Below, in pieces: positions 6,827 to 33,968 of a stretch of DNA of 36,548 nt. Origin of the DNA: a virus. A program made the translations under genes and the position numbers. The DNA is taken from UHGV virus genome UHGV-0383210; one strand, 5' to 3'. Positions within the stretch are counted from its first letter, which is position 1. The number at the start of each line of letters is the position of its first letter. A model generated the notes under the pieces. The model saw only the letters and a list, made by a program, of their open reading frames with translations, ran no database searches and had not been told where the DNA came from.

Positions 6827-8179
<1,353 letters not shown>

Positions 8180-8188
8180 GACATTCCC

Positions 8189-8219
8189 GCTCTTACACAT
8201 CCCAGCCCTGAAAAAGGGC
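8189..8219 (+). promoter_or_regulatory. nutR (boxA CGCTCTTA plus boxB GCCCTGAAAAAGGGC)
   Basis: Read directly; matches lambda nutR pattern just downstream of cro. Confidence 0.8.
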
Positions 8220-8298
8220 ATCAAATTAAACCACACCTATGGTGTATGCATTTATTTGCATACATTCAATCAATTGTTATCTAAGGAAATACTTACAT

Positions 8299-8592
8299 AT
8301 GGTTCGTGCAAACAAACGCAACGAGGCTCTACGAATCGAGAGTGCGTTGCTTAACAAAATCGCAATGCTTGGAACTGAGAAGACAGCGGAAGCTGTGGGA
8401 GTTGATAAGTCGCAGATCAGCAGGTGGAAGAGAGACTGGATTCCAAAGTTCTCAATGCTGCTTGCTGTTCTTGAATGGGGGGTCGTTGACGACGACATGG
8501 CTCGATTGGCGCGACAAGTTGCTGCGATTCTCACCAATAAAAAACGCCCGGCGGCAACCGAGCGTTCTGAACAAATCCAGATGGAGTTCTGA
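8299..8592 (+). CDS. cII: cII transcriptional activator (97 aa; internal ATG of ORF 8239..8592)
   Basis: MVRANKRNEALRIESALLNKIAMLGTEKTAEAVGVDKSQISRWKRDWIPKFSMLLAVLEWGVVDDDMARLARQVAAILTNKKRPAATERSEQIQMEF matches recalled lambda CII. Confidence 0.95.
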   Translation: MVRANKRNEALRIESALLNKIAMLGTEKTAEAVGVDKSQISRWKRDWIPKFSMLLAVLEWGVVDDDMARLARQVAAILTNKKRPAATERSEQIQMEF

Positions 8593-8624
8593 GGTCATTA
8601 CTGGATCTATCAACAGGAGTCATT

Positions 8625-9524
8625 ATGACAAATACAGCAAAAATACTCAACTTCGGCAGAGGTAACTTTGCCGGACAGGAGCGTAATGTGGCAGATCTCG
8701 ATGATGGTTACGCCAGACTATCAAATATGCTGCTTGAGGCTTATTCGGGCGCAGATCTGACCAAGCGACAGTTTAAAGTGCTGCTTGCCATTCTGCGTAA
8801 AACCTATGGGTGGAATAAACCAATGGACAGAATCACCGATTCTCAACTTAGCGAGATTACAAAGTTACCTGTCAAACGGTGCAATGAAGCCAAGTTAGAA
8901 CTCGTCAGAATGAATATTATCAAGCAGCAAGGCGGCATGTTTGGACCAAATAAAAACATCTCAGAATGGTGTATCCCTCAAAACGAGGGAAAATCCCCTA
9001 AAACGAGGGATAAAACATCCCTCAAATTGGGGGATTGCTATCCCTCAAAACAGGGGGACACAAAAGACACTATTACAAAAGAAAAAAGAAAAGATTATTC
9101 GTCCGAGAATTCTGGCGAATCCTCTGACCAGCCAGAAAACGATCTTTCTGTGGTTAAACCGGATGCTGCAATTCAGAGCGGCAGCAAGTGGGGAACAGCA
9201 GAAGACCTGACCGCCGCAGAGTGGATGTTTGACATGGTGAAGACCATCGCGCCATCAGCCAGAAAACCGAATTTTGCTGGGTGGGCTAACGATATCCGCC
9301 TGATGCGTGAACGTGACGGACGTAACCACCGCGATATGTGTGTGCTTTTCCGCTGGGCCTGCCAGGACAACTTCTGGTCCGGTAACGTGCTGAGTCCGGC
9401 CAAACTCCGCGACAAGTGGACCCAGCTCGAAATCAACCGTAACAAGCAACAGGCAGGCGTGACAGCCAGCAAACCAAAACTCGACCTGACAAACACTGAC
9501 TGGATTTACGGGGTGGATTTATGA
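8625..9524 (+). CDS. O: Replication initiator O (299 aa)
   Basis: MTNTAKILNFGRGNFAGQERNVADLDDGYARLSNMLLEAYSGADLTKRQFKVLLAILRKTYGW matches recalled lambda O; origin iterons inside the gene. Confidence 0.95.
   Translation: MTNTAKILNFGRGNFAGQERNVADLDDGYARLSNMLLEAYSGADLTKRQFKVLLAILRKTYGWNKPMDRITDSQLSEITKLPVKRCNEAKLELVRMNIIKQQGGMFGPNKNISEWCIPQNEGKSPKTRDKTSLKLGDCYPSKQGDTKDTITKEKRKDYSSENSGESSDQPENDLSVVKPDAAIQSGSKWGTAEDLTAAEWMFDMVKTIAPSARKPNFAGWANDIRLMRERDGRNHRDMCVLFRWACQDNFWSGNVLSPAKLRDKWTQLEINRNKQQAGVTASKPKLDLTNTDWIYGVDL
8973..9058 (+). repeat. Origin iterons (four ~18-bp O-binding repeats) followed by AT-rich stretch to about 9110
   Basis: Four copies of the TCCCTCAAAACGAGGGA motif read directly inside O. 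Confidence 0.85.
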
Positions 9525-12596: not shown

Positions 12597-12671
12597 GGGT
12601 CAGTCGTATAAAGGTCATTACGGAAGGCTGTTAACCTTCTTATCGTGGTTCGAGTCCACGCTGTCCCGCCA
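12597..12671 (+). tRNA. Phage-encoded tRNA, anticodon GUU (Asn) by hand fold
   Basis: Cloverleaf folded by hand: acceptor GGGTCAG/CTGTCCC (one T-T mismatch), anticodon stem GAAGG/CCTTC, loop CTGTTAA, T-loop TTCGAGT, discriminator G, CCA. Confidence 0.55.
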
Positions 12672-12676
12672 AATAT

Positions 12677-12752
12677 GCTGGTTTAGCTCCAATGGTAGAG
12701 CGGTCGCCTTGTAAGCGAATGGGTAGCGGTTCAAGTCCGTTAACCAGCACCA
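12677..12752 (+). tRNA. Phage-encoded tRNA, anticodon UGU (Thr) by hand fold
   Basis: Acceptor GCTGGTT/AACCAGC perfect, D-stem GCTC/GAGC, anticodon loop CTTGTAA, T-arm GGTTCAAGTCC, discriminator A, CCA. Confidence 0.65.
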
Positions 12753-12870: not shown

Positions 12871-13086
12871 ATGAAATCAATGGACAAAATCTCAACTGGC
12901 ATTGCCTACGGAACATCCGCTGGTAGTGCGGGATACTGGTTTTTGCAGTGGTTGGATCAGGTCAGTCCATCACAGTGGGCTGCGATTGGGGTGCTTGGAA
13001 GCCTTGTGTTGGGCTTTCTCACCTATCTGACAAATCTGTACTTCAAAATCAGAGAAGACAGAAGAAAGGCTGCGAGAGGTGAATAA
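12871..13086 (+). CDS. S: Pinholin, phage-21 S type, with dual-start motif (Met1 at 12871, Met4 at 12880)
   Basis: [71 protein letters not shown] matches recalled S21 pinholin. Confidence 0.9.
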
Positions 13087-13583
13087 TGCCTCCATCATTA
13101 CGAAAAGCCGTTGCTGCGGCTATTGGTGGCGGGGCTATTGCTATAGCATCTGTGTTAATCACTGGCCCAAGTGGTAACGATGGTCTGGAAGGCGTCAGCT
13201 ACATACCATATAAAGATATCGTTGGTGTATGGACTGTATGTTACGGGCATACCGGAAAAGACATTATGCTCGGTAAAACGTATACCGAAGCAGAATGCAA
13301 AGCCCTCCTGAATAAAGACCTTGCCACTGTCGCCAGACAAATTAACCCGTACATCAAAGTCGATATACCGGAAACAACGCGCGGCGCTCTTTACTCGTTC
13401 GTTTACAACGTTGGTGCTGGAAATTTCAGAACATCGACGCTTCTTCGCAAAATAAACCAGGGCGATATCAAAGGCGCATGTGATCAGCTACGGCGCTGGA
13501 CATACGCTGGCGGTAAGCAATGGAAAGGGCTGATGACTCGCCGTGAGATTGAGCGTGAAGTCTGTTTGTGGGGGCAACAATGA
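13086..13583 (+). CDS. R: SAR endolysin, phage-21 R type (T4-lysozyme-like with N-terminal signal-anchor-release domain)
   Basis: N-terminal [30 protein letters not shown] segment followed by lysozyme domain; matches recalled R21; ATAATG overlap with holin stop. Confidence 0.9.
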
Positions 13584-14017
13584 GTAGAGTAACCGTGATT
13601 ATCTCCGCTCTGGTTATCTGCATCATCGTCTGCCTGTCATGGGCTGTTAATCATTACCGTGATAACGCCATGACCTACAAAGAACAGCGCGATAAAGCCA
13701 CATCCATCATCGCTGATATGCAGAAGCGTCAACGTGATGTAGCAGAACTCGACGCAAGATATACAAAGGAACTTGCTGATGCTAACGCGACTATCGAAAG
13801 TCTCCGTGCTGATGTTTCTGCTGGGCGTAAGCGCCTGCAAGTCGCCGCCACCTGTGCAAAGTCAACGACCGGAGCCAGCAGCATGGGCGATGGAGAAAGC
13901 CCAAGACTTACAGCAGATGCTGAACTCAATTATTACCGTCTCCGAAGTGGAATCGACAGGATAACCGCGCAGGTTAACTACTTGCAGGAATACATCAGGA
14001 CGCAATGCCTTCGATGA
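13580..14017 (+). CDS. Rz: Rz i-spanin (ATG 13580 overlapping R stop; ORF-track start 13568 is GTG)
   Basis: N-terminal TM segment [20 protein letters not shown], coiled-coil body, position after endolysin. Confidence 0.8.
13779..13964 (+). CDS. Rz1: Rz1 o-spanin lipoprotein embedded in +1 frame of Rz
   Basis: [20 protein letters not shown] lipobox then proline-rich [14 protein letters not shown]; fully nested in Rz as in lambda. Confidence 0.75.
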
Positions 14018-27638: not shown

Positions 27639-29607
27639 AGATTTCCTTGTCTCGCTTGGCTTCAGTGTGGATGATGCAGGAGCGAAAAAATTCGGTTCTG
27701 TCCTCGCCGGTACAACTGCAAATGTCATCAAAATGGGGCTGGCCGTCGAAGGAGCGGCGCTGTCCGTGGTGGCCTTCACGGCTAAGATCGCCTCCGGCCT
27801 GGATAATCTTTACTGGGCGTCACAGCGCACCGGCGCGACAGTCCAGGGAATTCAGTCTATTGGCTATGCGGTTTCGCAGGTTGGCGGCAGCGTGGACGCT
27901 GCGCGATCTTCTCTGGAAAACCTCTCCCGGTTTATTCGTAATAATCCCGGGGCGGAGGGATTTCTGAATCGTCTGGGGGTACAGACACGGGATGCCAGCG
28001 GTAACATGCGTGACATGGCCGCTATTTTTACAGGGGTAGGCCAGAAGCTCAGCGACATGCCGTATTACCGTGCTAACCAGTATGCGCAGATGCTGGGCAT
28101 TGACGAAAATACCCTGTTGGCTATGCGTCGCGGTGTGGGTGGCTTCTCCGGGCAGTACAGCGCAATGGCGAAAGCTATCGGCTTCAATGCTGACGAGGCG
28201 GCCAGAAGCTCCAACAAATTTATGACCTCCCTGCGTGAGTTTGGCGCGATGGCAGGCATGGCCCGTGACAAAATCGGCTCTAATCTTGCGGGTGGGCTTG
28301 CGGGTTCGCTGGACACACTGCGCCGCCATATCCTGGACAACTTCCCGCGTATCGAGCAGACCCTGACGAAAGCCATAAAAGGCATTCTGGCGCTCGGGGA
28401 TATTATCGGGCGGCTGTTCTTCAGACTGATTGAGGGGACATCAGGCCTCATCACCTGGTGGCAATCGCTGGATAAGCAAACGCGGGAGTTGATCTCGCTG
28501 TTTGGCGCACTGACGATTGCGCTGCGCATTCTGAACAGTACGTTCTGGATGTCGCCGATTGGCCTCATTACCGCGCTGGCGGCGGGGATTGCCCTCCTGT
28601 GGGAGGACTATCAGACCTGGAAGGAAGGCGGCGACAGCCTGATTGACTGGGGCAAGTGGAAACCGGAGGTTGATGCCGCGCTGAAGATGGTTCGTGACCT
28701 TAAAACGACCGTTAACGACCTGGTGAAAGCGCTGGCGAAACTGCTCAATATTGACCCCAAATCATGGTCCCTGAAGTGGGATTTCAGCAACTTCATCGAC
28801 CAGATGGGCGAATTCAGCAAAATGCTGAACATGATCGCCGACCTGCTCAACGCTATCAAAGATGGCCGCTGGGCTGATGCCGTCAGCATCGGCAAACAGA
28901 TACTTAATCAGGGCAGCGAAAATCCGTCAGCGATGCCGATGGTTACAGACAGCGCTAACAGTACTGCCGACTGGATTAAAGAGCACTGGGGATTTGATCC
29001 CCGCAGTGTGGGCCGGACGGTACGCGGCTGGTTTGGTGATGATGAGCCGGAACAACATGCACAGGCTACGAAACGAGGAGAACGGAATAACAATCCGGGA
29101 AACCTTAATTTTGCTGGTCAGGCAGGGGCTTCTCTTGAACGCCCGGGCGGGCGATTTGCCAGATTTGAAACTGCCTTTGATGGATTACGGGCTCTTGCTC
29201 GTCAGTTAATGCTGTACGCCGGACGGGGAATAAACAGTGTGGAGAAAATTATCTCTACCTGGGCACCTGCGTCTGATAATAACAACACAACTGCGTATAT
29301 CAGGGCTGTATCGCAACGACTGGGAGTGGATCCCCGGGCTGCCCTGAATATGAGCGATCCGCAAACCATGTCAGCATTGATGAGCAGCATTATCCAGCAT
29401 GAGAATGGAAGAAATATCTATTCTCGAGAGCTGATTAATAAGGCTGCCGTGGCGGGAATTAGTGGCAAAGTGACAGAGGTTAACCAGCAAAATACCTACC
29501 ACATTTACGGTGGCGGAGATCCGCACGCTGTCGGTAATGAGGTTGCACGTCGGCAACAGTCTGCAAATGCTCAGGTCATGCGAAGTAATCAGGTGAGGGT
29601 GGGTTAG
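27619..29607 (+). CDS. Tail tape measure protein (662 aa from ATG 27619, which has SD GGAGAGAGG; ORF-track start 27598 lacks an RBS)
   Basis: Largest tail ORF, follows chaperone pair; hydrophobic central segments. Confidence 0.7.
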   Translation: MNAETIKDFLVSLGFSVDDAGAKKFGSVLAGTTANVIKMGLAVEGAALSVVAFTAKIASGLDNLYWASQRTGATVQGIQSIGYAVSQVGGSVDAARSSLENLSRFIRNNPGAEGFLNRLGVQTRDASGNMRDMAAIFTGVGQKLSDMPYYRANQYAQMLGIDENTLLAMRRGVGGFSGQYSAMAKAIGFNADEAARSSNKFMTSLREFGAMAGMARDKIGSNLAGGLAGSLDTLRRHILDNFPRIEQTLTKAIKGILALGDIIGRLFFRLIEGTSGLITWWQSLDKQTRELISLFGALTIALRILNSTFWMSPIGLITALAAGIALLWEDYQTWKEGGDSLIDWGKWKPEVDAALKMVRDLKTTVNDLVKALAKLLNIDPKSWSLKWDFSNFIDQMGEFSKMLNMIADLLNAIKDGRWADAVSIGKQILNQGSENPSAMPMVTDSANSTADWIKEHWGFDPRSVGRTVRGWFGDDEPEQHAQATKRGERNNNPGNLNFAGQAGASLERPGGRFARFETAFDGLRALARQLMLYAGRGINSVEKIISTWAPASDNNNTTAYIRAVSQRLGVDPRAALNMSDPQTMSALMSSIIQHENGRNIYSRELINKAAVAGISGKVTEVNQQNTYHIYGGGDPHAVGNEVARRQQSANAQVMRSNQVRVG

Positions 29608-30498: not shown

Positions 30499-31560
30499 AT
30501 GTCACAGAACTGGATGAGACATTTCGAGCTGCAGCTTGTGGACGGGAACGGTCAGGGAATTGAGCTAAGTGATTTCAAAGTCACCTTTACGATCGACTGG
30601 TTCAACATCAGCAGCGCGTCCCGGGTAGGGACTATCAAAATTTATAACCTCTCGGCAGATACTGTGAACCGAATCACCGGGAAGGAATTTTCGAAAGTGC
30701 GGCTGATTGCCGGTTACGACGGTATCGCGCCGGAGGTGGCGGCAAGCGACGTCGGGACCGTGCGCGAAGTCGACGCGGCAGATGTGGGCCAGAGTGATGG
30801 CCGCAACTACGGGCTGATTTTCAGCGGAGAAATTCGCTACTCGGTCACAGGAAAAGACAGCCCTATTGATTCCTATGTCCTGATTCAGGCAGCAGATACG
30901 GATCTGGCATTTGCCACCAGTATAACCTCACAGACGCTGGCTGCCGGTTACACGGTCGCTGATGTGAACCGTGCGCTGATGAAAGACTTCGAAGCCAAAG
31001 GCGCGACCGAAGGCCTGACGCCTGAAATGCCTGCTACTGTATTCCCCCGGGGGCGGGTGCTCTTTGGCATGACGCGGCATCTTATGGATAACGTAGCCGG
31101 GCAATGTGGCGCAACATGGCAATTCGTGGACGGTCAACGCCAGATGGTGGCGAATAACGAATATGTTCATGAAGCGATTGTGCTCAACAGCGCCACCGGG
31201 CTTATCGGCATGCCGCAGCAGACTATCGGCAACGGCGTAAACGTCCGCGCGCTTATTAATCCGAACATCCGGGTTAACGGACTTATTCAGCTGGATCAGG
31301 CTTCCGTGTATCGTACCGCCTTGTCGAACAACGATATTGCGATGGCTGGTGGTCAGATCACCGACCAGAACACGGATGGAAATATCACGCTAAGCGGCAC
31401 CACATCGCAGCCTGCCAGCATCGCAACGGATGGCGTTTATATTGTGCGCGGGATTATGTACACTGGCGACACAAGGGGCCAGGCGTGGTACATGGATATG
31501 ATGTGCGAAGCGCGTGGCGCGGCGGATCTGTATACGCGATCGGCTTTGCAAAGGGGATGA
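30499..31560 (+). CDS. Baseplate hub protein (P2 gpD / Mu gp44-like, 353 aa)
   Basis: Size and position after tape measure in a myovirus tail cluster. Confidence 0.5.
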   Translation: MSQNWMRHFELQLVDGNGQGIELSDFKVTFTIDWFNISSASRVGTIKIYNLSADTVNRITGKEFSKVRLIAGYDGIAPEVAASDVGTVREVDAADVGQSDGRNYGLIFSGEIRYSVTGKDSPIDSYVLIQAADTDLAFATSITSQTLAAGYTVADVNRALMKDFEAKGATEGLTPEMPATVFPRGRVLFGMTRHLMDNVAGQCGATWQFVDGQRQMVANNEYVHEAIVLNSATGLIGMPQQTIGNGVNVRALINPNIRVNGLIQLDQASVYRTALSNNDIAMAGGQITDQNTDGNITLSGTTSQPASIATDGVYIVRGIMYTGDTRGQAWYMDMMCEARGAADLYTRSALQRG

Positions 31561-31563
31561 GCA

Positions 31564-31905
31564 ATGAGGGGTATTATTTTTCTGTTAGCTGTTTTTTCTG
31601 CGTGCAGCGCGTGGGCGGATGGCTTCACGGTTAAATGCGGTGGCTACACTATGGTTGCAAACCAGGGCGAGTTATCGACTATCAACGGTGAAAGAGTTAC
31701 CTCTCAAAAAATCACCGAACTGGGTACCAATGGTTTGAAAGTAGACATGGGGCTTATGCCTGCCAAAGACGGTAACAACTACGGCTTTGAATACATTCGT
31801 CGCCCTGGCACCGAAACGCGTTTCCTGAACGTCCAGCTTCTGCAGAACAGCATGGATGCGCCTAAAATCATCGGATCATTCCCTTGTAAAAAGGCGTTAC
31901 GCTAA
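31564..31905 (+). CDS. Small secreted protein (113 aa) with N-terminal signal peptide; not an expected virion gene
   Basis: MRGIIFLLAVFSACSAWA signal-like N-terminus with AWA-DG cleavage context; SD AGGGGA; sits between hub and spike genes. Confidence 0.6.
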   Translation: MRGIIFLLAVFSACSAWADGFTVKCGGYTMVANQGELSTINGERVTSQKITELGTNGLKVDMGLMPAKDGNNYGFEYIRRPGTETRFLNVQLLQNSMDAPKIIGSFPCKKALR

Positions 31906-32000
31906 AGTTTGATGTCAATCTTCCGAGATGAGCGCTTTAAGGTTGACGAGATATTGTTCAAAGTTCACAATCACAATCCCTTTAGTAAGAGAAATAATCC

Positions 32001-32774
32001 ATGGCGGCAGGCATCCCATTAGAAAAAGCGCAAAAATATATTGAACAATTCAATGCGCTTCTATTGGATAGGGAAAGTTTAGATCCCTTCACTGAAAAGA
32101 AAATTCGAGAGGAACTTTCTGTCTCTCCAACGCCTGCTACCAACATTGCACTATCTTATCTGGATGCAATAACCGGAAAGATTGAAAGCGCGTTACGTTA
32201 TCTCAGGATAAGCCTAGAAGTAAACGATGTAACGTTGGCAATGCACTATCATCACATTTTAATTAATACATTTAGCTATAATGAACTCAAGGATGTCTAT
32301 GTCCCGCTGGCAAAGAAGTATCGGACAAAACTCTTTAGTCACAACGCATACAGTTGGGCGTACCGTTGCGGCGAGCGTGAACAGTTAAAATTTTATATGG
32401 AAGAGCACATTAAGCTTCTTTCTGAATCAGAAGGCAGGAGTAATGCTATGAAGCACAAAGAAGAACTCCTTGCAGAAATGGATAATTTCTATAGCGCCAC
32501 ACAGTGCTCGAAGGAACAGTTCCAGACCTTAGCATCCATAATCTGGGGCTTGCTAAGTGAATACAAGGCTACGACAGGTTTCGTTCAGCTTAGTGGAAGC
32601 GGTTGCTATGTTGTTGATATTAAAAATCTTGAGCCTAAAACTATTGCCAAAATGAACTTCGACTTGGCTGATAGAGTCTGCGCTGAATCTAAACTGGATG
32701 ATTGTTCCCTGTTAGCTAGATTTACCTCTCCGCGTCAGTTGCATACGGGGGTGAGCTACCATGTCGGTAACTAG
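32001..32774 (+). CDS. Hypothetical protein (257 aa), first gene of AT-rich two-gene insert
   Basis: ATG ORF, predicted soluble and helical by eye, no recognised motif; low GC relative to flanks. Confidence 0.6.
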   Translation: MAAGIPLEKAQKYIEQFNALLLDRESLDPFTEKKIREELSVSPTPATNIALSYLDAITGKIESALRYLRISLEVNDVTLAMHYHHILINTFSYNELKDVYVPLAKKYRTKLFSHNAYSWAYRCGEREQLKFYMEEHIKLLSESEGRSNAMKHKEELLAEMDNFYSATQCSKEQFQTLASIIWGLLSEYKATTGFVQLSGSGCYVVDIKNLEPKTIAKMNFDLADRVCAESKLDDCSLLARFTSPRQLHTGVSYHVGN

Positions 32775-33156
32775 CAATCAGATTCTCGATACCGCTCGAT
32801 TATGTCTGTCTGAAAATATTGAGAGTGGATTTCGAAGCGCTATCTCAAGGGCGTATTACAGTATGTTACATGAGTCTATTAGCTCACTTACTGCCATACC
32901 GCATTTTACCCATGAGCATCACAAAAATACTGTGGGTTATATGTCAACGCCCTCAGAGTGCAAATCAGAGCCATACCCGACAAATACACTGAAATCCCTA
33001 GCTTTCGTACTTCGCCAGTGGCGGGATGCTAGAAATGAAGCTGACTATGATCTGACGAATGTGACTGTTTCGAAAGAGATGGGACAGGATGCAATCGAGG
33101 CTGCTGAACTCTATTTTGAGCGCTGGGAACAGCTAAAGTCTGCTAGAGTTTCATGA
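32761..33156 (+). CDS. Hypothetical protein (131 aa), second gene of insert; tentative HEPN-like helical features
   Basis: ATG overlaps upstream gene by 14 nt with strong SD GGGGGTGAG; contains RAYYSMLH (R-x6-H) and RDARNEADY motifs. Confidence 0.6.
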   Translation: MSVTSNQILDTARLCLSENIESGFRSAISRAYYSMLHESISSLTAIPHFTHEHHKNTVGYMSTPSECKSEPYPTNTLKSLAFVLRQWRDARNEADYDLTNVTVSKEMGQDAIEAAELYFERWEQLKSARVS

Positions 33157-33173
33157 ATAAAATTAACGTTATC

Positions 33174-33196
33174 AAACCCGCTTCGGCGGGTTTTTT
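33174..33196 (+). terminator. Rho-independent terminator ending the two-gene insert
   Basis: AAACCCGC-ttcg-GCGGGTTT perfect 8-bp stem followed by TTTTTT. Confidence 0.8.
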
Positions 33197-33215
33197 GCTT
33201 TCTGGAGCCTACTAA

Positions 33216-33968
33216 ATGGCAGTATCTGACCAGACCCGCAGCGGCGACCTTGCCGAAACATTCAAATCTGAACGGGAAACAACAAAGAACCAGATCCGTG
33301 TCGCCTTGCCTGGCATTATTCAGTCATTCGATCCTGATGCGGTGACGGCAGTTGTGCAGCCTGCTATCCGTTCGGTTGAAAAGGATAATGACGGCAACCG
33401 CATTACCAAAAATTACCCATTGCTGGTGGATGTGCCAGTGGTATTCCCGCGCGGCGGAGGATGTACGCTAACGTTCCCAGTTAAAGCCGGTGATGAATGT
33501 TTGGTGATTTTTGCCGATCGTTGTATTGATTTCTGGTGGCAGAGTGGCGGGATACAGGAGTCGGTCGATGACAGAATGCATGATTTATCGGATGCGTTTT
33601 GTATTGTCGGTCCCCAGTCGCAGGCAAGGAAGATTAGCGGTATTAATACCAGTGCCACACAGTTGCGTAGTGATGACGGCAGCACCTATTTTGAGCTTAA
33701 TCCTGATACCAGGAAAATTAAAATTGTCGCTCCAGGTGGTCTTGATGTGGTTGCCCCTCTGGCTGATTTTTCTGAGAAAGTAACCATTCATGGCCTGTTA
33801 ACCTGGATGGGGGGCATGGTGGGGTCTGTGGTTTCTGGTGTGGCTTCAAAAATCACTGGTGCTGTTGAGTTTTTGGGGAGCGTGAAGGCTAATGGCAAGC
33901 CAATCGATGATACACACACTCATGGTGGTGTTCAGCGTGGTGGAAGCAGTACCGACGGGGTAAACTGA
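33216..33968 (+). CDS. Baseplate central spike / assembly protein V-like (250 aa)
   Basis: Gene order hub-spike-W-J-I typical of P2/Mu-like baseplates; SD GGAG. Confidence 0.5.
   Translation: MAVSDQTRSGDLAETFKSERETTKNQIRVALPGIIQSFDPDAVTAVVQPAIRSVEKDNDGNRITKNYPLLVDVPVVFPRGGGCTLTFPVKAGDECLVIFADRCIDFWWQSGGIQESVDDRMHDLSDAFCIVGPQSQARKISGINTSATQLRSDDGSTYFELNPDTRKIKIVAPGGLDVVAPLADFSEKVTIHGLLTWMGGMVGSVVSGVASKITGAVEFLGSVKANGKPIDDTHTHGGVQRGGSSTDGVN

What the first reader, a model, noticed from the sequence alone, without database searches (positions are those of the whole stretch)
31564..31905. Secreted small protein encoded directly after the baseplate hub gene
The 113-aa ORF starts 4 nt after the hub gene stop with its own SD and has a signal-peptide-like N-terminus (MRGIIFLLAVFSACSAWA). 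Exported periplasmic proteins are not expected tail components, so this looks like a moron in the style of lambda bor or lom, a candidate lysogenic-conversion or superinfection-exclusion factor. It also immediately precedes the AT-rich two-gene insert, so the three genes may form one cargo locus.
Basis: partly seen in the sequence, partly recalled or inferred. Interest (0 to 1): 0.5.

Follow-up and report, generated by a model that had tools for sequence, protein, structure and literature searches.

The report
Exported small protein beside baseplate hub
A small protein that a prophage of E. coli sends into the space between the cell's two membranes is encoded inside its tail-gene cluster; it is real, strongly conserved and not a tail part, its function is untested (blocking entry of rival phages is the best guess), and it marks the fixed left edge of a site where related phages swap accessory genes.

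Summary
ORF 31564-31905 starts three bases after the hub stop codon, has its own ribosome-binding site, and encodes a protein with a classic cleavable signal peptide. The mature part has two invariant cysteines, and AlphaFold2 predicts an 8-stranded beta-barrel (pLDDT 93). It is under strong purifying selection.

The gene is extra: more distant relatives, and the structurally solved Pam3 baseplate, have hub and spike genes adjacent. It is not a classic moron, though. Its GC matches the tail genes, no promoter is detectable, and it is present after the hub in about 19 of 22 related enterobacterial phage records. In complete E. coli genomes it occurs about once per hub gene (about 6% of genomes).

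The three genes are not one co-inherited unit. The small gene stays, while the DNA between it and a conserved terminator before the spike gene varies from empty to 1.9 kb, with dozens of unrelated cargo families. The gene is itself mosaic, with a swappable 5' two-thirds and a conserved 3' third.

There is no sequence match to any characterised family. The fold is generic (avidin-like). Function is inferred only: most likely an envelope-level block to incoming phage (about 0.35).

The parts
30499..31560 (+). Baseplate hub gene (353 aa), upstream neighbour. Its last ~15 codons already belong to the variable allele cassette.
   Evidence: phrog_196 baseplate hub E 4e-88 and a weak Pfam E217_GP41 match. 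Counterpart of Pam3 gp19. Allele breakpoint at ~31510-31540.
31551..31557 (+). Shine-Dalgarno sequence AAGGGGA for the small ORF, inside the end of the hub gene.
   Evidence: Read directly from the sequence. It lies 6 nt before ATG 31564.
31564..31905 (+). Small exported-protein gene (113 aa, phrog_3443 family, function unknown).
   Evidence: Purifying selection shown.
31564..31617 (+). Signal peptide (aa 1-18, MRGIIFLLAVFSACSAWA). Predicted signal peptidase I cut after A18.
   Evidence: Alignments A1 and A3. Heuristics hold in 56/56 N-termini. dN/dS is 0.23 here against 0.02-0.08 in the mature part.
31603..31605 (+). Cys14 codon. This is an allele-specific lipobox-like FSAC, so lipoprotein processing cannot be excluded for this allele.
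   Evidence: A lipobox-like Cys occurs in only 8 of 56 distinct N-termini. It is not conserved in A1 or A3.
31618..31902 (+). Mature domain (95 aa), predicted to be an 8-stranded up-and-down beta-barrel.
31636..31638 (+). Invariant Cys25 (first strand). Inferred disulfide partner of Cys108.
   Evidence: Invariant in A1, A2 and A3. The disulfide itself is inferred and was not measured.
31885..31887 (+). Invariant Cys108 (last strand).
   Evidence: Invariant in A1, A2 and A3.
31510..31745 (+). Hypervariable allele cassette: end of the hub gene, the signal peptide and the N-terminal strands. DNA identity to other alleles is only 40-60% here, while the flanks are >=96% identical.
   Evidence: Sliding-window comparison with five alleles.
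31746..31905 (+). Conserved 3' third of the small gene (83-100% DNA identity between alleles). It forms the left border of the swap-in cargo slot.
   Evidence: A remnant of exactly this part survives in Hafnia phage yong1.
31906..32000 (+). AT-rich spacer (GC 0.37) with two sigma-70-like sites (31943-31971 and 31970-31998) in front of the cargo genes.
32001..33156 (+). Cargo of this prophage: a 257-aa gene (32001-32774, phrog_17809) and a 131-aa gene (32761-33156, phrog_5176). This is the commonest cargo type in related loci.
   Evidence: GC 0.42/0.44.
33174..33203 (+). Intrinsic terminator (AAACCCGC-TTCG-GCGGGTTT plus a T run) 42 nt before the spike start codon. It is the conserved right border of the whole insertion.
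   Evidence: Found at -42 to -45 in 98 of 107 loci by regular expression, with compensatory stem variants in most of the rest. Present in empty-slot loci and absent where hub and spike are adjacent.
33216..33968 (+). Central spike gene (250 aa), downstream neighbour.
   Evidence: Pfam PF18352 spike N-terminal domain E 4e-44 plus the GpV apex motif. Counterpart of Pam3 gp20.

Best explanation
Shown or strongly supported:
- The gene encodes a small protein that the Sec pathway exports from the cytoplasm. The signal peptide is most likely cut after Ala18.
- The mature 95 residues fold into an 8-stranded beta-barrel. A disulfide between the first and last strands (Cys25-Cys108) probably closes it.
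- It is not part of the virion. It is an accessory gene inserted between the hub and spike genes in an ancestor of a group of temperate enterobacterial myophages (SEN34/Brunovirus-like tails).
- It has since become a fixed member of the late tail operon and is translated from its own ribosome-binding site right after the hub gene.

Inferred:
- In the periplasm of the producing cell (and of the lysogen, if it is transcribed there) it binds something involved in envelope crossing by incoming phage. Candidates are the tail-tip proteins of related phages, for example the endolysin-like C-terminal domain of the tape measure or the spike-hub complex, or a host entry factor.
- This would block genome delivery or protect against lysis from without, in the logic of T4 Spackle, P1 Sim or HK97 gp15.
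- The swappable N-terminal two-thirds would set specificity, and the conserved C-terminal third would be scaffold.

My confidence in the anatomy (exported, non-structural, lineage-fixed accessory gene) is about 0.85. My confidence in the exclusion mechanism is about 0.35, and that is the figure given.
For: Export:
- Signal-peptide features are kept in 56/56 distinct N-termini although the sequence drifts.
- The two cysteines are the most conserved residues across the whole family.
- Database sources independently name homologues 'Secreted protein' or 'Putative exported protein'.

Not structural:
- Every Pam3 baseplate component has a counterpart in the window without this protein.
- Hub and spike genes are adjacent in PSTCR3, IFTN9 and Ab105-1phi.
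- yong1 has replaced most of the gene with an unrelated exported-protein gene.

Fixed in the lineage:
- It sits directly after the hub in about 19 of 22 phage records with hub identity >=46% and in nearly all of 101 further loci.
- In E. coli there are 316 hub places against 302-334 small-gene places.

Consistent with an arms-race or exclusion role:
- Discrete alleles (54-100% identity) occur in prophages whose hubs are >=95% identical. Together with the spike and the tape-measure C-terminus it is among the most variable parts of the module.
- The tape measure carries an endolysin-like domain (PDB 7q47 E 9e-14; PHROGs 'endolysin' and 'tail injection transglycosylase').
- The adjacent slot collects envelope-targeted and defence-like cargo, including a family annotated 'superinfection exclusion Sie-like' (phrog_8545).
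- Co-resident related prophages usually carry different alleles: E. coli BY68 and Pantoea, Pseudescherichia and Serratia.
- HK97 gp15 is a precedent for an exclusion gene inside a tail operon (PMC3594210).
Against: - There is no experimental evidence of any kind.
- There is no sequence similarity to any known exclusion protein, defence protein or Pfam family.
- The fold is a generic avidin-like barrel and gives no functional assignment.
- No promoter is detectable, so the gene may be silent in lysogens. That would limit an exclusion role to the late lytic phase.
- Small-gene alleles reassort freely with tape-measure and spike alleles, and with different tape-measure C-terminal domain types. 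There is therefore no co-variation pointing to a partner.
- The allele diversity could simply reflect the general mosaicism of these tail modules, since the J-like and gp48-like genes vary too.
- The viral-contig sample was selected by similarity to this protein, which biases the allele statistics.
Confidence: 0.35

Rival explanations
1. It is a lysogenic-conversion factor that benefits the bacterium independently of phages, for example a periplasmic inhibitor of lysozyme or another host-derived hydrolase in the manner of MliC/PliC/PhiA, or a ligand-binding barrel.
For: - UniProt names one homologue (48% identical, from Pseudescherichia vulneris) 'C-type lysozyme inhibitor domain-containing protein'.
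- The carriers are gut and pathogenic Enterobacterales.
Against: - There is no MliC Pfam match even at E<=10, including for the homologue so named.
- The PDB profile search finds no MliC or PliC.
- The two MliC/PliC signature motifs, recalled from memory, occur in 0 of 255 family members.
- Avidins score higher than PliC.
- There is no own promoter for expression in the lysogen.
- High allele turnover fits poorly with a conserved host target.
Confidence: 0.15
2. It is a lytic-cycle helper that acts in the periplasm of the producing cell. It might tune lysis timing, sense superinfection, or keep progeny from being wasted on debris. It would not act as an entry block.
For: It is embedded in the late operon 3 nt after the hub gene and has no promoter of its own. 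It would therefore be made at the same time as the tails.
Against: - A complete holin, endolysin and Rz spanin cassette lies elsewhere in the window (12872-14017).
- The gene is absent from relatives that have the same tail.
- It is dispensable in yong1.
- No similarity to any lysis protein family was found.
Confidence: 0.2
3. At least in this allele it is an outer-membrane lipoprotein, cut before Cys14 and lipidated, that masks or modifies the phage receptor in the manner of T5 Llp or phi80 Cor.
For: The window allele and a few others have a lipobox-like motif (FSAC, LMAC, LFSC, MSSC) at residues 13-15, with a short hydrophobic stretch before it.
Against: - Only 8 of 56 distinct N-termini have such a Cys. 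Most family members, including all the Klebsiella ones, have none.
- Every member also has a good A-x-A site further on.
- There is no similarity to Llp or Cor families in PHROGs or Pfam.
Confidence: 0.1
4. It is a baseplate component or assembly factor whose hydrophobic N-terminus is not a signal peptide.
For: It lies between two baseplate genes and is co-translated with them.
Against: - The solved Pam3 baseplate has no counterpart.
- It is absent in relatives and replaced in yong1.
- The N-terminus evolves like a cleavable signal peptide.
- The two invariant cysteines suggest oxidative folding outside the cytoplasm.
Confidence: 0.04

Closest known systems
HK97 gp15 moron (superinfection exclusion gene inside a tail operon)
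   Same: Both are small envelope-targeted accessory proteins encoded between tail genes that are adjacent in related phages. HK97 gp15 acts on entry of related phages in a tail-dependent way (PMC3594210).
   Different: gp15 is an inner-membrane protein with its own promoter, terminator and deviant GC, and it is expressed from the prophage. The protein here is a soluble barrel (or possibly lipid-anchored). It has no detectable promoter, its GC matches its neighbours, it is fixed in its lineage, and it shows no sequence similarity.
T4 Spackle (Sp) and P1 Sim, periplasmic exclusion proteins of myophages (from my own knowledge)
   Same: These are small proteins with cleaved signal peptides made by contractile-tail phages. 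Spackle inhibits the tail-borne lysozyme of incoming phage. The tape measure in this window also carries a peptidoglycan hydrolase domain.
   Different: There is no sequence or fold relationship. As far as I recall Spackle is helical, whereas this protein is an all-beta barrel. Spackle is an early gene of a virulent phage. No binding or inhibition was tested here, and alleles do not co-vary with the tape-measure hydrolase type.
Lambda Lom and Bor
   Same: They are exported proteins encoded in or beside the late region of a temperate phage.
   Different: From my own knowledge, Lom is an integral outer-membrane barrel of the Ail/OmpX family and Bor is a lipoprotein. Both are expressed in lysogens from their own promoters. 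There is no Pfam or PHROG match to either. The barrel here is predicted to be soluble, and its gene has no detectable promoter.
MliC/PliC/PhiA periplasmic hydrolase inhibitors
   Different: There is no HMM match. The signature motifs are absent. Avidin-type barrels match better.
Avidin/streptavidin-like (calycin) barrels
   Different: Sequence identity is only 6-11%. This is a shared fold class only, and nothing suggests biotin binding.
Accessory-gene hotspots in prophage structural operons
   Same: A fixed position between two conserved structural genes collects diverse self-contained accessory genes.
   Different: Here the hotspot has a defined architecture: a conserved exported-protein gene as the left border and a covarying terminator as the right border.

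Membership tests
Moron (as defined in PMC3594210) | Extra DNA between genes that are adjacent in related phages | tested here: met
   Hub and spike genes overlap or abut in PSTCR3, IFTN9 and Ab105-1phi. They are consecutive genes in Pam3 (gp19, gp20).
Moron (as defined in PMC3594210) | GC content different from the surrounding genes | tested here: not met
   GC is 0.480 (GC3 0.535), against 0.550 for the hub, 0.499 for the spike and 0.47-0.55 for the tail genes overall. The true cargo next door is 0.42-0.44.
Moron (as defined in PMC3594210) | Own promoter | tested here: inconclusive
   No sigma-70 consensus-like site lies on the + strand within 300 nt upstream in the window or in three other alleles. 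A consensus scan cannot exclude weak or non-sigma-70 promoters.
Moron (as defined in PMC3594210) | Own terminator | tested here: inconclusive
   In empty-slot relatives (L088, L104) the conserved terminator follows the small gene within about 20 nt. In the window it lies 1.27 kb downstream, behind the cargo genes.
Moron (as defined in PMC3594210) | Expressed from the repressed prophage | not testable with these tools
   This needs RNA-seq or 5' mapping of an uninduced lysogen.
Sec-exported protein cut by signal peptidase I | Positive n-region, hydrophobic core of 10 or more residues, and small residues at -1 and -3 | tested here: met
   MR / GIIFLLAVFSACSAW / A-W-A then D19. Of 56 distinct family N-termini, 56 have the core and the -1/-3 site and 47 have K/R in the first 8 residues; I assume, without checking, that the other 9 are shortened start calls.
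Sec-exported protein cut by signal peptidase I | Positive call by a dedicated predictor (SignalP) or by an export assay | not testable with these tools
   No such predictor was available.
Bacterial lipoprotein (signal peptidase II) | Conserved lipobox with an invariant Cys at +1 | tested here: not met
   FSAC14 is present in this allele, but a lipobox-like Cys occurs in only 8 of 56 distinct N-termini. For this single allele the question stays open.
MliC/PliC lysozyme inhibitors (Pfam PF09864) | Match to the family HMM | tested here: not met
   No hit at E<=0.1 or at E<=10 for ten diverse members. The PDB profile search finds no MliC or PliC.
MliC/PliC lysozyme inhibitors (Pfam PF09864) | Signature motifs SxSGAxY and YxxxTKG (recalled from memory) | tested here: not met
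   0 of 255 family members match, even with relaxed patterns.
MliC/PliC lysozyme inhibitors (Pfam PF09864) | 8-stranded periplasmic beta-barrel | tested here: met
Known superinfection-exclusion proteins (Spackle, Sim, gp15, Llp, Cor, Sie-like PHROGs) | Sequence homology to a characterised member | tested here: not met
   The only PHROG hit is phrog_3443, 'unknown function'. Pfam, NCBIfam, PADLOC and PDB gave nothing.
Known superinfection-exclusion proteins (Spackle, Sim, gp15, Llp, Cor, Sie-like PHROGs) | Reduces infection by incoming phage after adsorption | not testable with these tools
   This needs plating and DNA-entry assays.
Pam3/Mu-type minimal baseplate component | Counterpart in the solved virion and presence in all phages that have this baseplate | tested here: not met
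   Every baseplate component described for Pam3 maps to another window gene. The small gene is absent in PSTCR3, IFTN9 and Ab105-1phi and disrupted in yong1.

The most novel reading that the evidence does not exclude
The family could be a new class of periplasmic entry blocker of temperate enterobacterial myophages. It would be a disulfide-closed beta-barrel made from within the tail operon. Its swappable N-terminal half would recognise the tail-tip apparatus of particular rival phages (the spike-hub complex or the tape-measure lysin domain). Alleles would then define exclusion groups that decide which related prophages can coexist in one cell. The gene also serves as the fixed left anchor of a recombination slot through which these phages exchange defence and exclusion cargo.
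Probability: 0.25. Interest if true: 0.65.

Novelty: new member of a known kind. Interest (0 to 1): 0.42.

Why it matters
The family is carried by roughly 6% of complete E. coli genomes and is common in Klebsiella, Salmonella, Enterobacter, Pantoea and Serratia prophages. Every database calls it hypothetical.

If it blocks phage entry, its alleles would help predict which temperate phages, and which therapeutic phages with related tails, can infect a given strain. It would also add a soluble periplasmic exclusion protein from a temperate phage to a short list.

Whatever its function, the locus gives a clean, well-bounded example of an accessory-gene exchange site inside a tail operon: conserved gene, then cargo, then conserved terminator. 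That is useful for mining new defence or exclusion genes. At least 25 cargo families were seen, several of them exported or membrane proteins.

Tried and rejected
- **Family searches.** Pfam, NCBIfam, PADLOC and PDB sequence searches found no family, whether with the single sequence or with 20- and 41-sequence profiles.
- **Fold searches.**
  - The first AlphaFold2 model, which included the signal peptide and used a shallow alignment, was mediocre (pLDDT 73.5).
  - Foldseek against viral models gave nothing significant.
  - The afdb50 library was unavailable.
- **MliC/PliC lead.** This came from a UniProt name on one homologue. It was tested and not supported at sequence or motif level.
- **Partner by co-variation.** I looked for a partner with which the protein co-varies. 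Small-gene alleles reassort freely with tape-measure N- and C-terminal alleles and with spike alleles. There is therefore no evidence for a matched pair within a genome.
- **Lysis-component idea.** Rejected, because a full holin, endolysin and spanin cassette lies elsewhere.
- **Literature.**
  - Searches for SEN34, Brunovirus, Wanchaivirus and STY1065 found no functional or virion-proteome data for this gene.
  - A general search on periplasmic exclusion proteins also found none.
  - Reading the SEN34 paper turned up none either.
- **Co-folding.** I did not attempt to co-fold the protein with the tape-measure lysin domain.
- **Remnant copy.** The copy in Pantoea stewartii (L027) turned out to be truncated by an integrase-bearing element, so it says nothing about retention in decayed prophages.

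Full report
**1. The observation**

ORF 31564..31905 (+ strand, 113 aa) exists as described.
- The hub gene (30499..31560) ends with TGA at 31558-31560. Three bases (GCA) follow, and then the ATG.
- AAGGGGA at 31551-31557 is a good ribosome-binding site 6 nt upstream.
- The N-terminus MRGIIFLLAVFSACSAWA|DG has the three parts of a Sec signal peptide.

The ORF is a real gene.
- It matches phrog_3443 ('unknown function') at E 1e-46.
- It has 396 homologues in the 5.8-billion-protein collection, all from Enterobacterales.
- An exhaustive HMM search of 1.84 billion cluster representatives finds only 40, so the family is narrow.
- Nei-Gojobori estimates over 56 distinct alleles give dN/dS of about 0.23 for the signal peptide, 0.08 for the N-terminal half of the mature protein and 0.02 for the C-terminal half.

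**2. What the protein is**

In alignments of close (A1), distant (A2) and mixed (A3) members, the first 18-20 residues differ freely in sequence. They always keep a hydrophobic core and small residues at -1 and -3, in 56 of 56 distinct N-termini. That is how cleavable signal peptides evolve.

Cys14 of the window allele makes a lipobox-like FSAC. Only 8 of 56 N-termini have such a Cys. The family as a whole is therefore not a lipoprotein family, but lipidation of this particular allele cannot be excluded.

The most conserved residues of the whole family are two cysteines, Cys25 and Cys108. AlphaFold2 on the 41-sequence alignment, with the mature part as target, gives a confident model (pLDDT 93.1, pTM 0.82, all five models 88-93). 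The model has eight beta-strands, with Cys25 in the first strand and Cys108 in the last. A disulfide closing the barrel is inferred. No coordinates were available to measure it.

There is no hit in Pfam, NCBIfam, PADLOC or PDB sequences. One homologue is called 'C-type lysozyme inhibitor domain-containing protein' by UniProt. I could not reproduce that assignment. The MliC/PliC signature motifs as I remember them are absent from all 255 members checked.

**3. Context in the window**

The window is a nearly complete lambdoid-regulated prophage with a contractile tail. It contains:
- an integrase, a CI-like repressor, NinG and a Q antiterminator
- a late promoter region followed by two tRNA genes
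- holin, endolysin and Rz spanin genes
- terminase, portal, sheath and tube genes

The baseplate genes correspond one-to-one to the minimal baseplate of cyanophage Pam3 (PMC9942802):

| Window gene | Pam3 counterpart |
|---|---|
| 195 aa, Dit-like | gp17, tube initiator |
| 100 aa | gp18, plug |
| 353 aa | gp19, hub |
| 250 aa | gp20, spike |
| 117 aa | gp21, sheath initiator |
| 399 and 226 aa | gp22, gp23, wedge |

In Pam3 the hub and spike genes are consecutive, and the virion contains nothing that corresponds to the 113-aa protein.

**4. Comparative anatomy**

In Yersinia phage YP3, Salmonella phage SEN34, Klebsiella phages Mulock, GZ7 and ST340-VIM1phi10.1, and the E. coli vB_EcoM phages, a homologue (27-98% identical) sits directly after the hub gene.
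- Phages that tblastn missed still have divergent homologues with signal peptides. These include ST405-OXA48phi1.2, and ST16-OXA48phi5.2, where the start codon is mis-annotated.
- Of 22 phage records with hub identity of 46% or more, about 19 have an intact copy.
- There are two exceptions. Hafnia phage yong1 has an unrelated signal-peptide protein in place of the 5' 80% of the gene, and only the last ~20 codons survive out of frame. Phage EKP1 has two other signal-peptide ORFs there.
- More distant relatives (hub 29-37% identical: Providencia PSTCR3, Bordetella IFTN9, Acinetobacter Ab105-1phi) have hub and spike genes abutting or overlapping.

The gene is therefore a lineage-specific insertion. 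It is dispensable for building a virion, yet it is fixed in the enterobacterial lineage.

In complete E. coli genomes the hub is found at 316 places in 306 genomes. The small gene is found at 302-334 places in 287-319 genomes. That is about one small gene per hub, in about 6% of genomes.

**5. The slot**

In 101 further loci from genomes and viral contigs, the small gene always follows the hub. The distance from its stop codon to the spike gene ranges from 34-81 nt to 1,856 nt. The same small-gene allele occurs with several different distances.

The intervening DNA holds dozens of unrelated ORF families:
- The commonest is the pair present in this window. A phrog_5176-type protein of 130-153 aa is found in 33 loci, with one homologue giving a faint HEPN hint at E 0.18. 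It comes with a 243-266-aa partner.
- Others include a DUF4282 membrane protein and a T5orf172/MUG113 protein.
- One family has a signal peptide and an OB fold, and matches phrog_8545 'superinfection exclusion Sie-like'.
- Several more are signal-peptide or membrane-anchored proteins.

The right end of the slot is a GC-rich hairpin plus T-run, 42-45 nt before the spike start codon.
- A regular expression finds it in 98 of 107 loci.
- Most of the rest have the same hairpin with compensatory stem changes, for example CCCGCC/GGCGGG changed to CCCAC/GTGGG, CCCGTC/GACGGG, GCCGC/GCGGC or GGCCGC/GTGGCC.
- It is present in empty-slot loci about 20 nt after the small gene.
- It is absent where hub and spike are adjacent.
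- In the window it lies at 33174-33193.

The whole insertion therefore reads: small gene, then exchangeable cargo, then terminator. In the window the cargo has its own sigma-70-like sites (31943-31971 and 31970-31998) and low GC. The small gene has neither. No promoter-like site lies within 300 nt upstream in four alleles, and its GC is 0.48.

**6. Mosaicism**

Compared with five other alleles, DNA identity is 96% or more up to about 31510-31540. It falls to 40-60% through the signal peptide and the first strands, up to about 31745. It then returns to 83-100% in the last third of the gene and is lost after the stop codon.

Among 70 loci whose hub is at least 95% identical to the window's:

| Gene | Identity range |
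|---|---|
| Small protein | 54-100% |
| Spike | 67-100% |
| Tape-measure C-terminus | 42-100% |
| Dit-like, plug and sheath-initiator proteins | 87% or more |

Small-gene alleles occur in every combination with tape-measure and spike alleles, so no partner is revealed by linkage. The viral-contig sample was selected by similarity to this protein, so these proportions are biased.

**7. Mechanism**

Shown by the analyses above: this is an exported, non-structural, strongly constrained accessory protein, made from within the late tail operon.

Inferred: its job. I favour interference with envelope crossing by incoming phage, that is exclusion or protection from lysis from without. The reasons are:
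- The incoming tail carries a peptidoglycan hydrolase. Tape-measure residues ~491-625 match PDB 7q47 'Endolysin' at E 9e-14 and the PHROGs 'endolysin' and 'tail injection transglycosylase'.
- The allele pattern resembles an arms race.
- Neighbouring cargo includes exclusion-like and envelope proteins.
- Co-resident related prophages usually carry different alleles.
- There are precedents: HK97 gp15 (PMC3594210), and T4 Spackle and P1 Sim (from my own knowledge).

Against this explanation: there is no homology to any such protein, the fold is generic, no promoter for lysogenic expression is detectable, and there is no co-variation with a candidate target. I put this explanation at about 0.35.

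Rivals and their confidence:
- lytic-phase periplasmic helper: 0.2
- host-benefit conversion factor such as a hydrolase inhibitor: 0.15
- receptor-masking lipoprotein for this allele: 0.1
- structural or assembly role: 0.04

**8. Verdict**

The protein is exported, is not a tail part, and is extra relative to the ancestral gene order.

It does not fit a bor/lom-style moron, and it does not form a unit with the two AT-rich genes. It is the fixed left border of an accessory-gene exchange slot whose right border is a conserved terminator.

The family is uncharacterised. In kind it belongs with accessory exported proteins inserted in phage tail operons. Interest is moderate.

Noticed in passing
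window 33174-33203, and the equivalent position in L002-L115: An intrinsic terminator lies 42-45 nt before the spike start codon in nearly all related phages. Its stem is maintained by compensatory changes. It is present even when the cargo slot is empty, and absent where the hub and spike genes are adjacent. A terminator in the middle of a tail operon implies that late transcription reads through it (Q antitermination). It probably insulates the tail genes from transcription that starts in the insert.
   Followed up: yes
window 31906-33156; the slot in L001-L115: The interval between the small gene and the terminator is an exchange site. It varies from empty to 1.9 kb and holds dozens of unrelated cargo ORF families. 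The window's pair (257 aa with 131 aa, phrog_17809 with phrog_5176, faint HEPN hint) is the commonest type, with the phrog_5176-type partner in 33 loci. Other cargo includes DUF4282, T5orf172/MUG113, a 'Sie-like' OB-fold exported protein and an antirepressor-like protein.
   Followed up: partly
window 29068-29472 (tape measure residues ~491-625): The tape-measure protein ends in an endolysin-like peptidoglycan hydrolase domain (PDB 7q47 'Endolysin' E 9e-14; 9vvp Gp29 E 1e-20). Related phages carry a different C-terminal domain at the same place, annotated as an SLT transglycosylase.
   Followed up: partly
L006 (Hafnia phage yong1) 4562-5082: The 5' four-fifths of the small gene are replaced by an unrelated gene that also encodes a signal-peptide protein (~156 aa, no PHROG match). 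The last ~20 codons of the original gene remain out of frame. The left cassette position seems to accept only exported proteins.
   Followed up: partly
P0143 (292 aa, metagenomic protein): One relative has the barrel domain as the C-terminal third of a larger protein. Its N-terminus has a lipoprotein-type signal sequence (LSGC), followed by an unrelated domain of ~170 residues.
   Followed up: no
L027 (Pantoea stewartii ATCC 8199) 7201-9261: An integrase-bearing element has inserted into the small gene and replaced its 5' end with an AlpA-like N-terminus. The hub gene is gone, so this is a decayed prophage.
   Followed up: partly
window 12597-12752: Two tRNA genes (Asn-GTT and Thr-TGT) sit between the Q antiterminator and late promoter region and the holin gene.
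   Followed up: no
E. coli BY68, NZ_CP090212.1, 1476177-1476499 and 2073975-2074133: One chromosome carries two related prophages with different small-gene alleles (689R2 type and window type). Copies that share a genome in Pantoea, Pseudescherichia and Serratia are also mostly different (54-89% identical). Whether this exceeds chance was not tested.
   Followed up: partly
L004 6097-6330, L007 4588-4866, L002 5109-5342: Several GenBank records annotate the homologue with a start codon that is too far downstream. This cuts off the signal peptide, so the exported nature is hidden in those annotations.
   Followed up: yes
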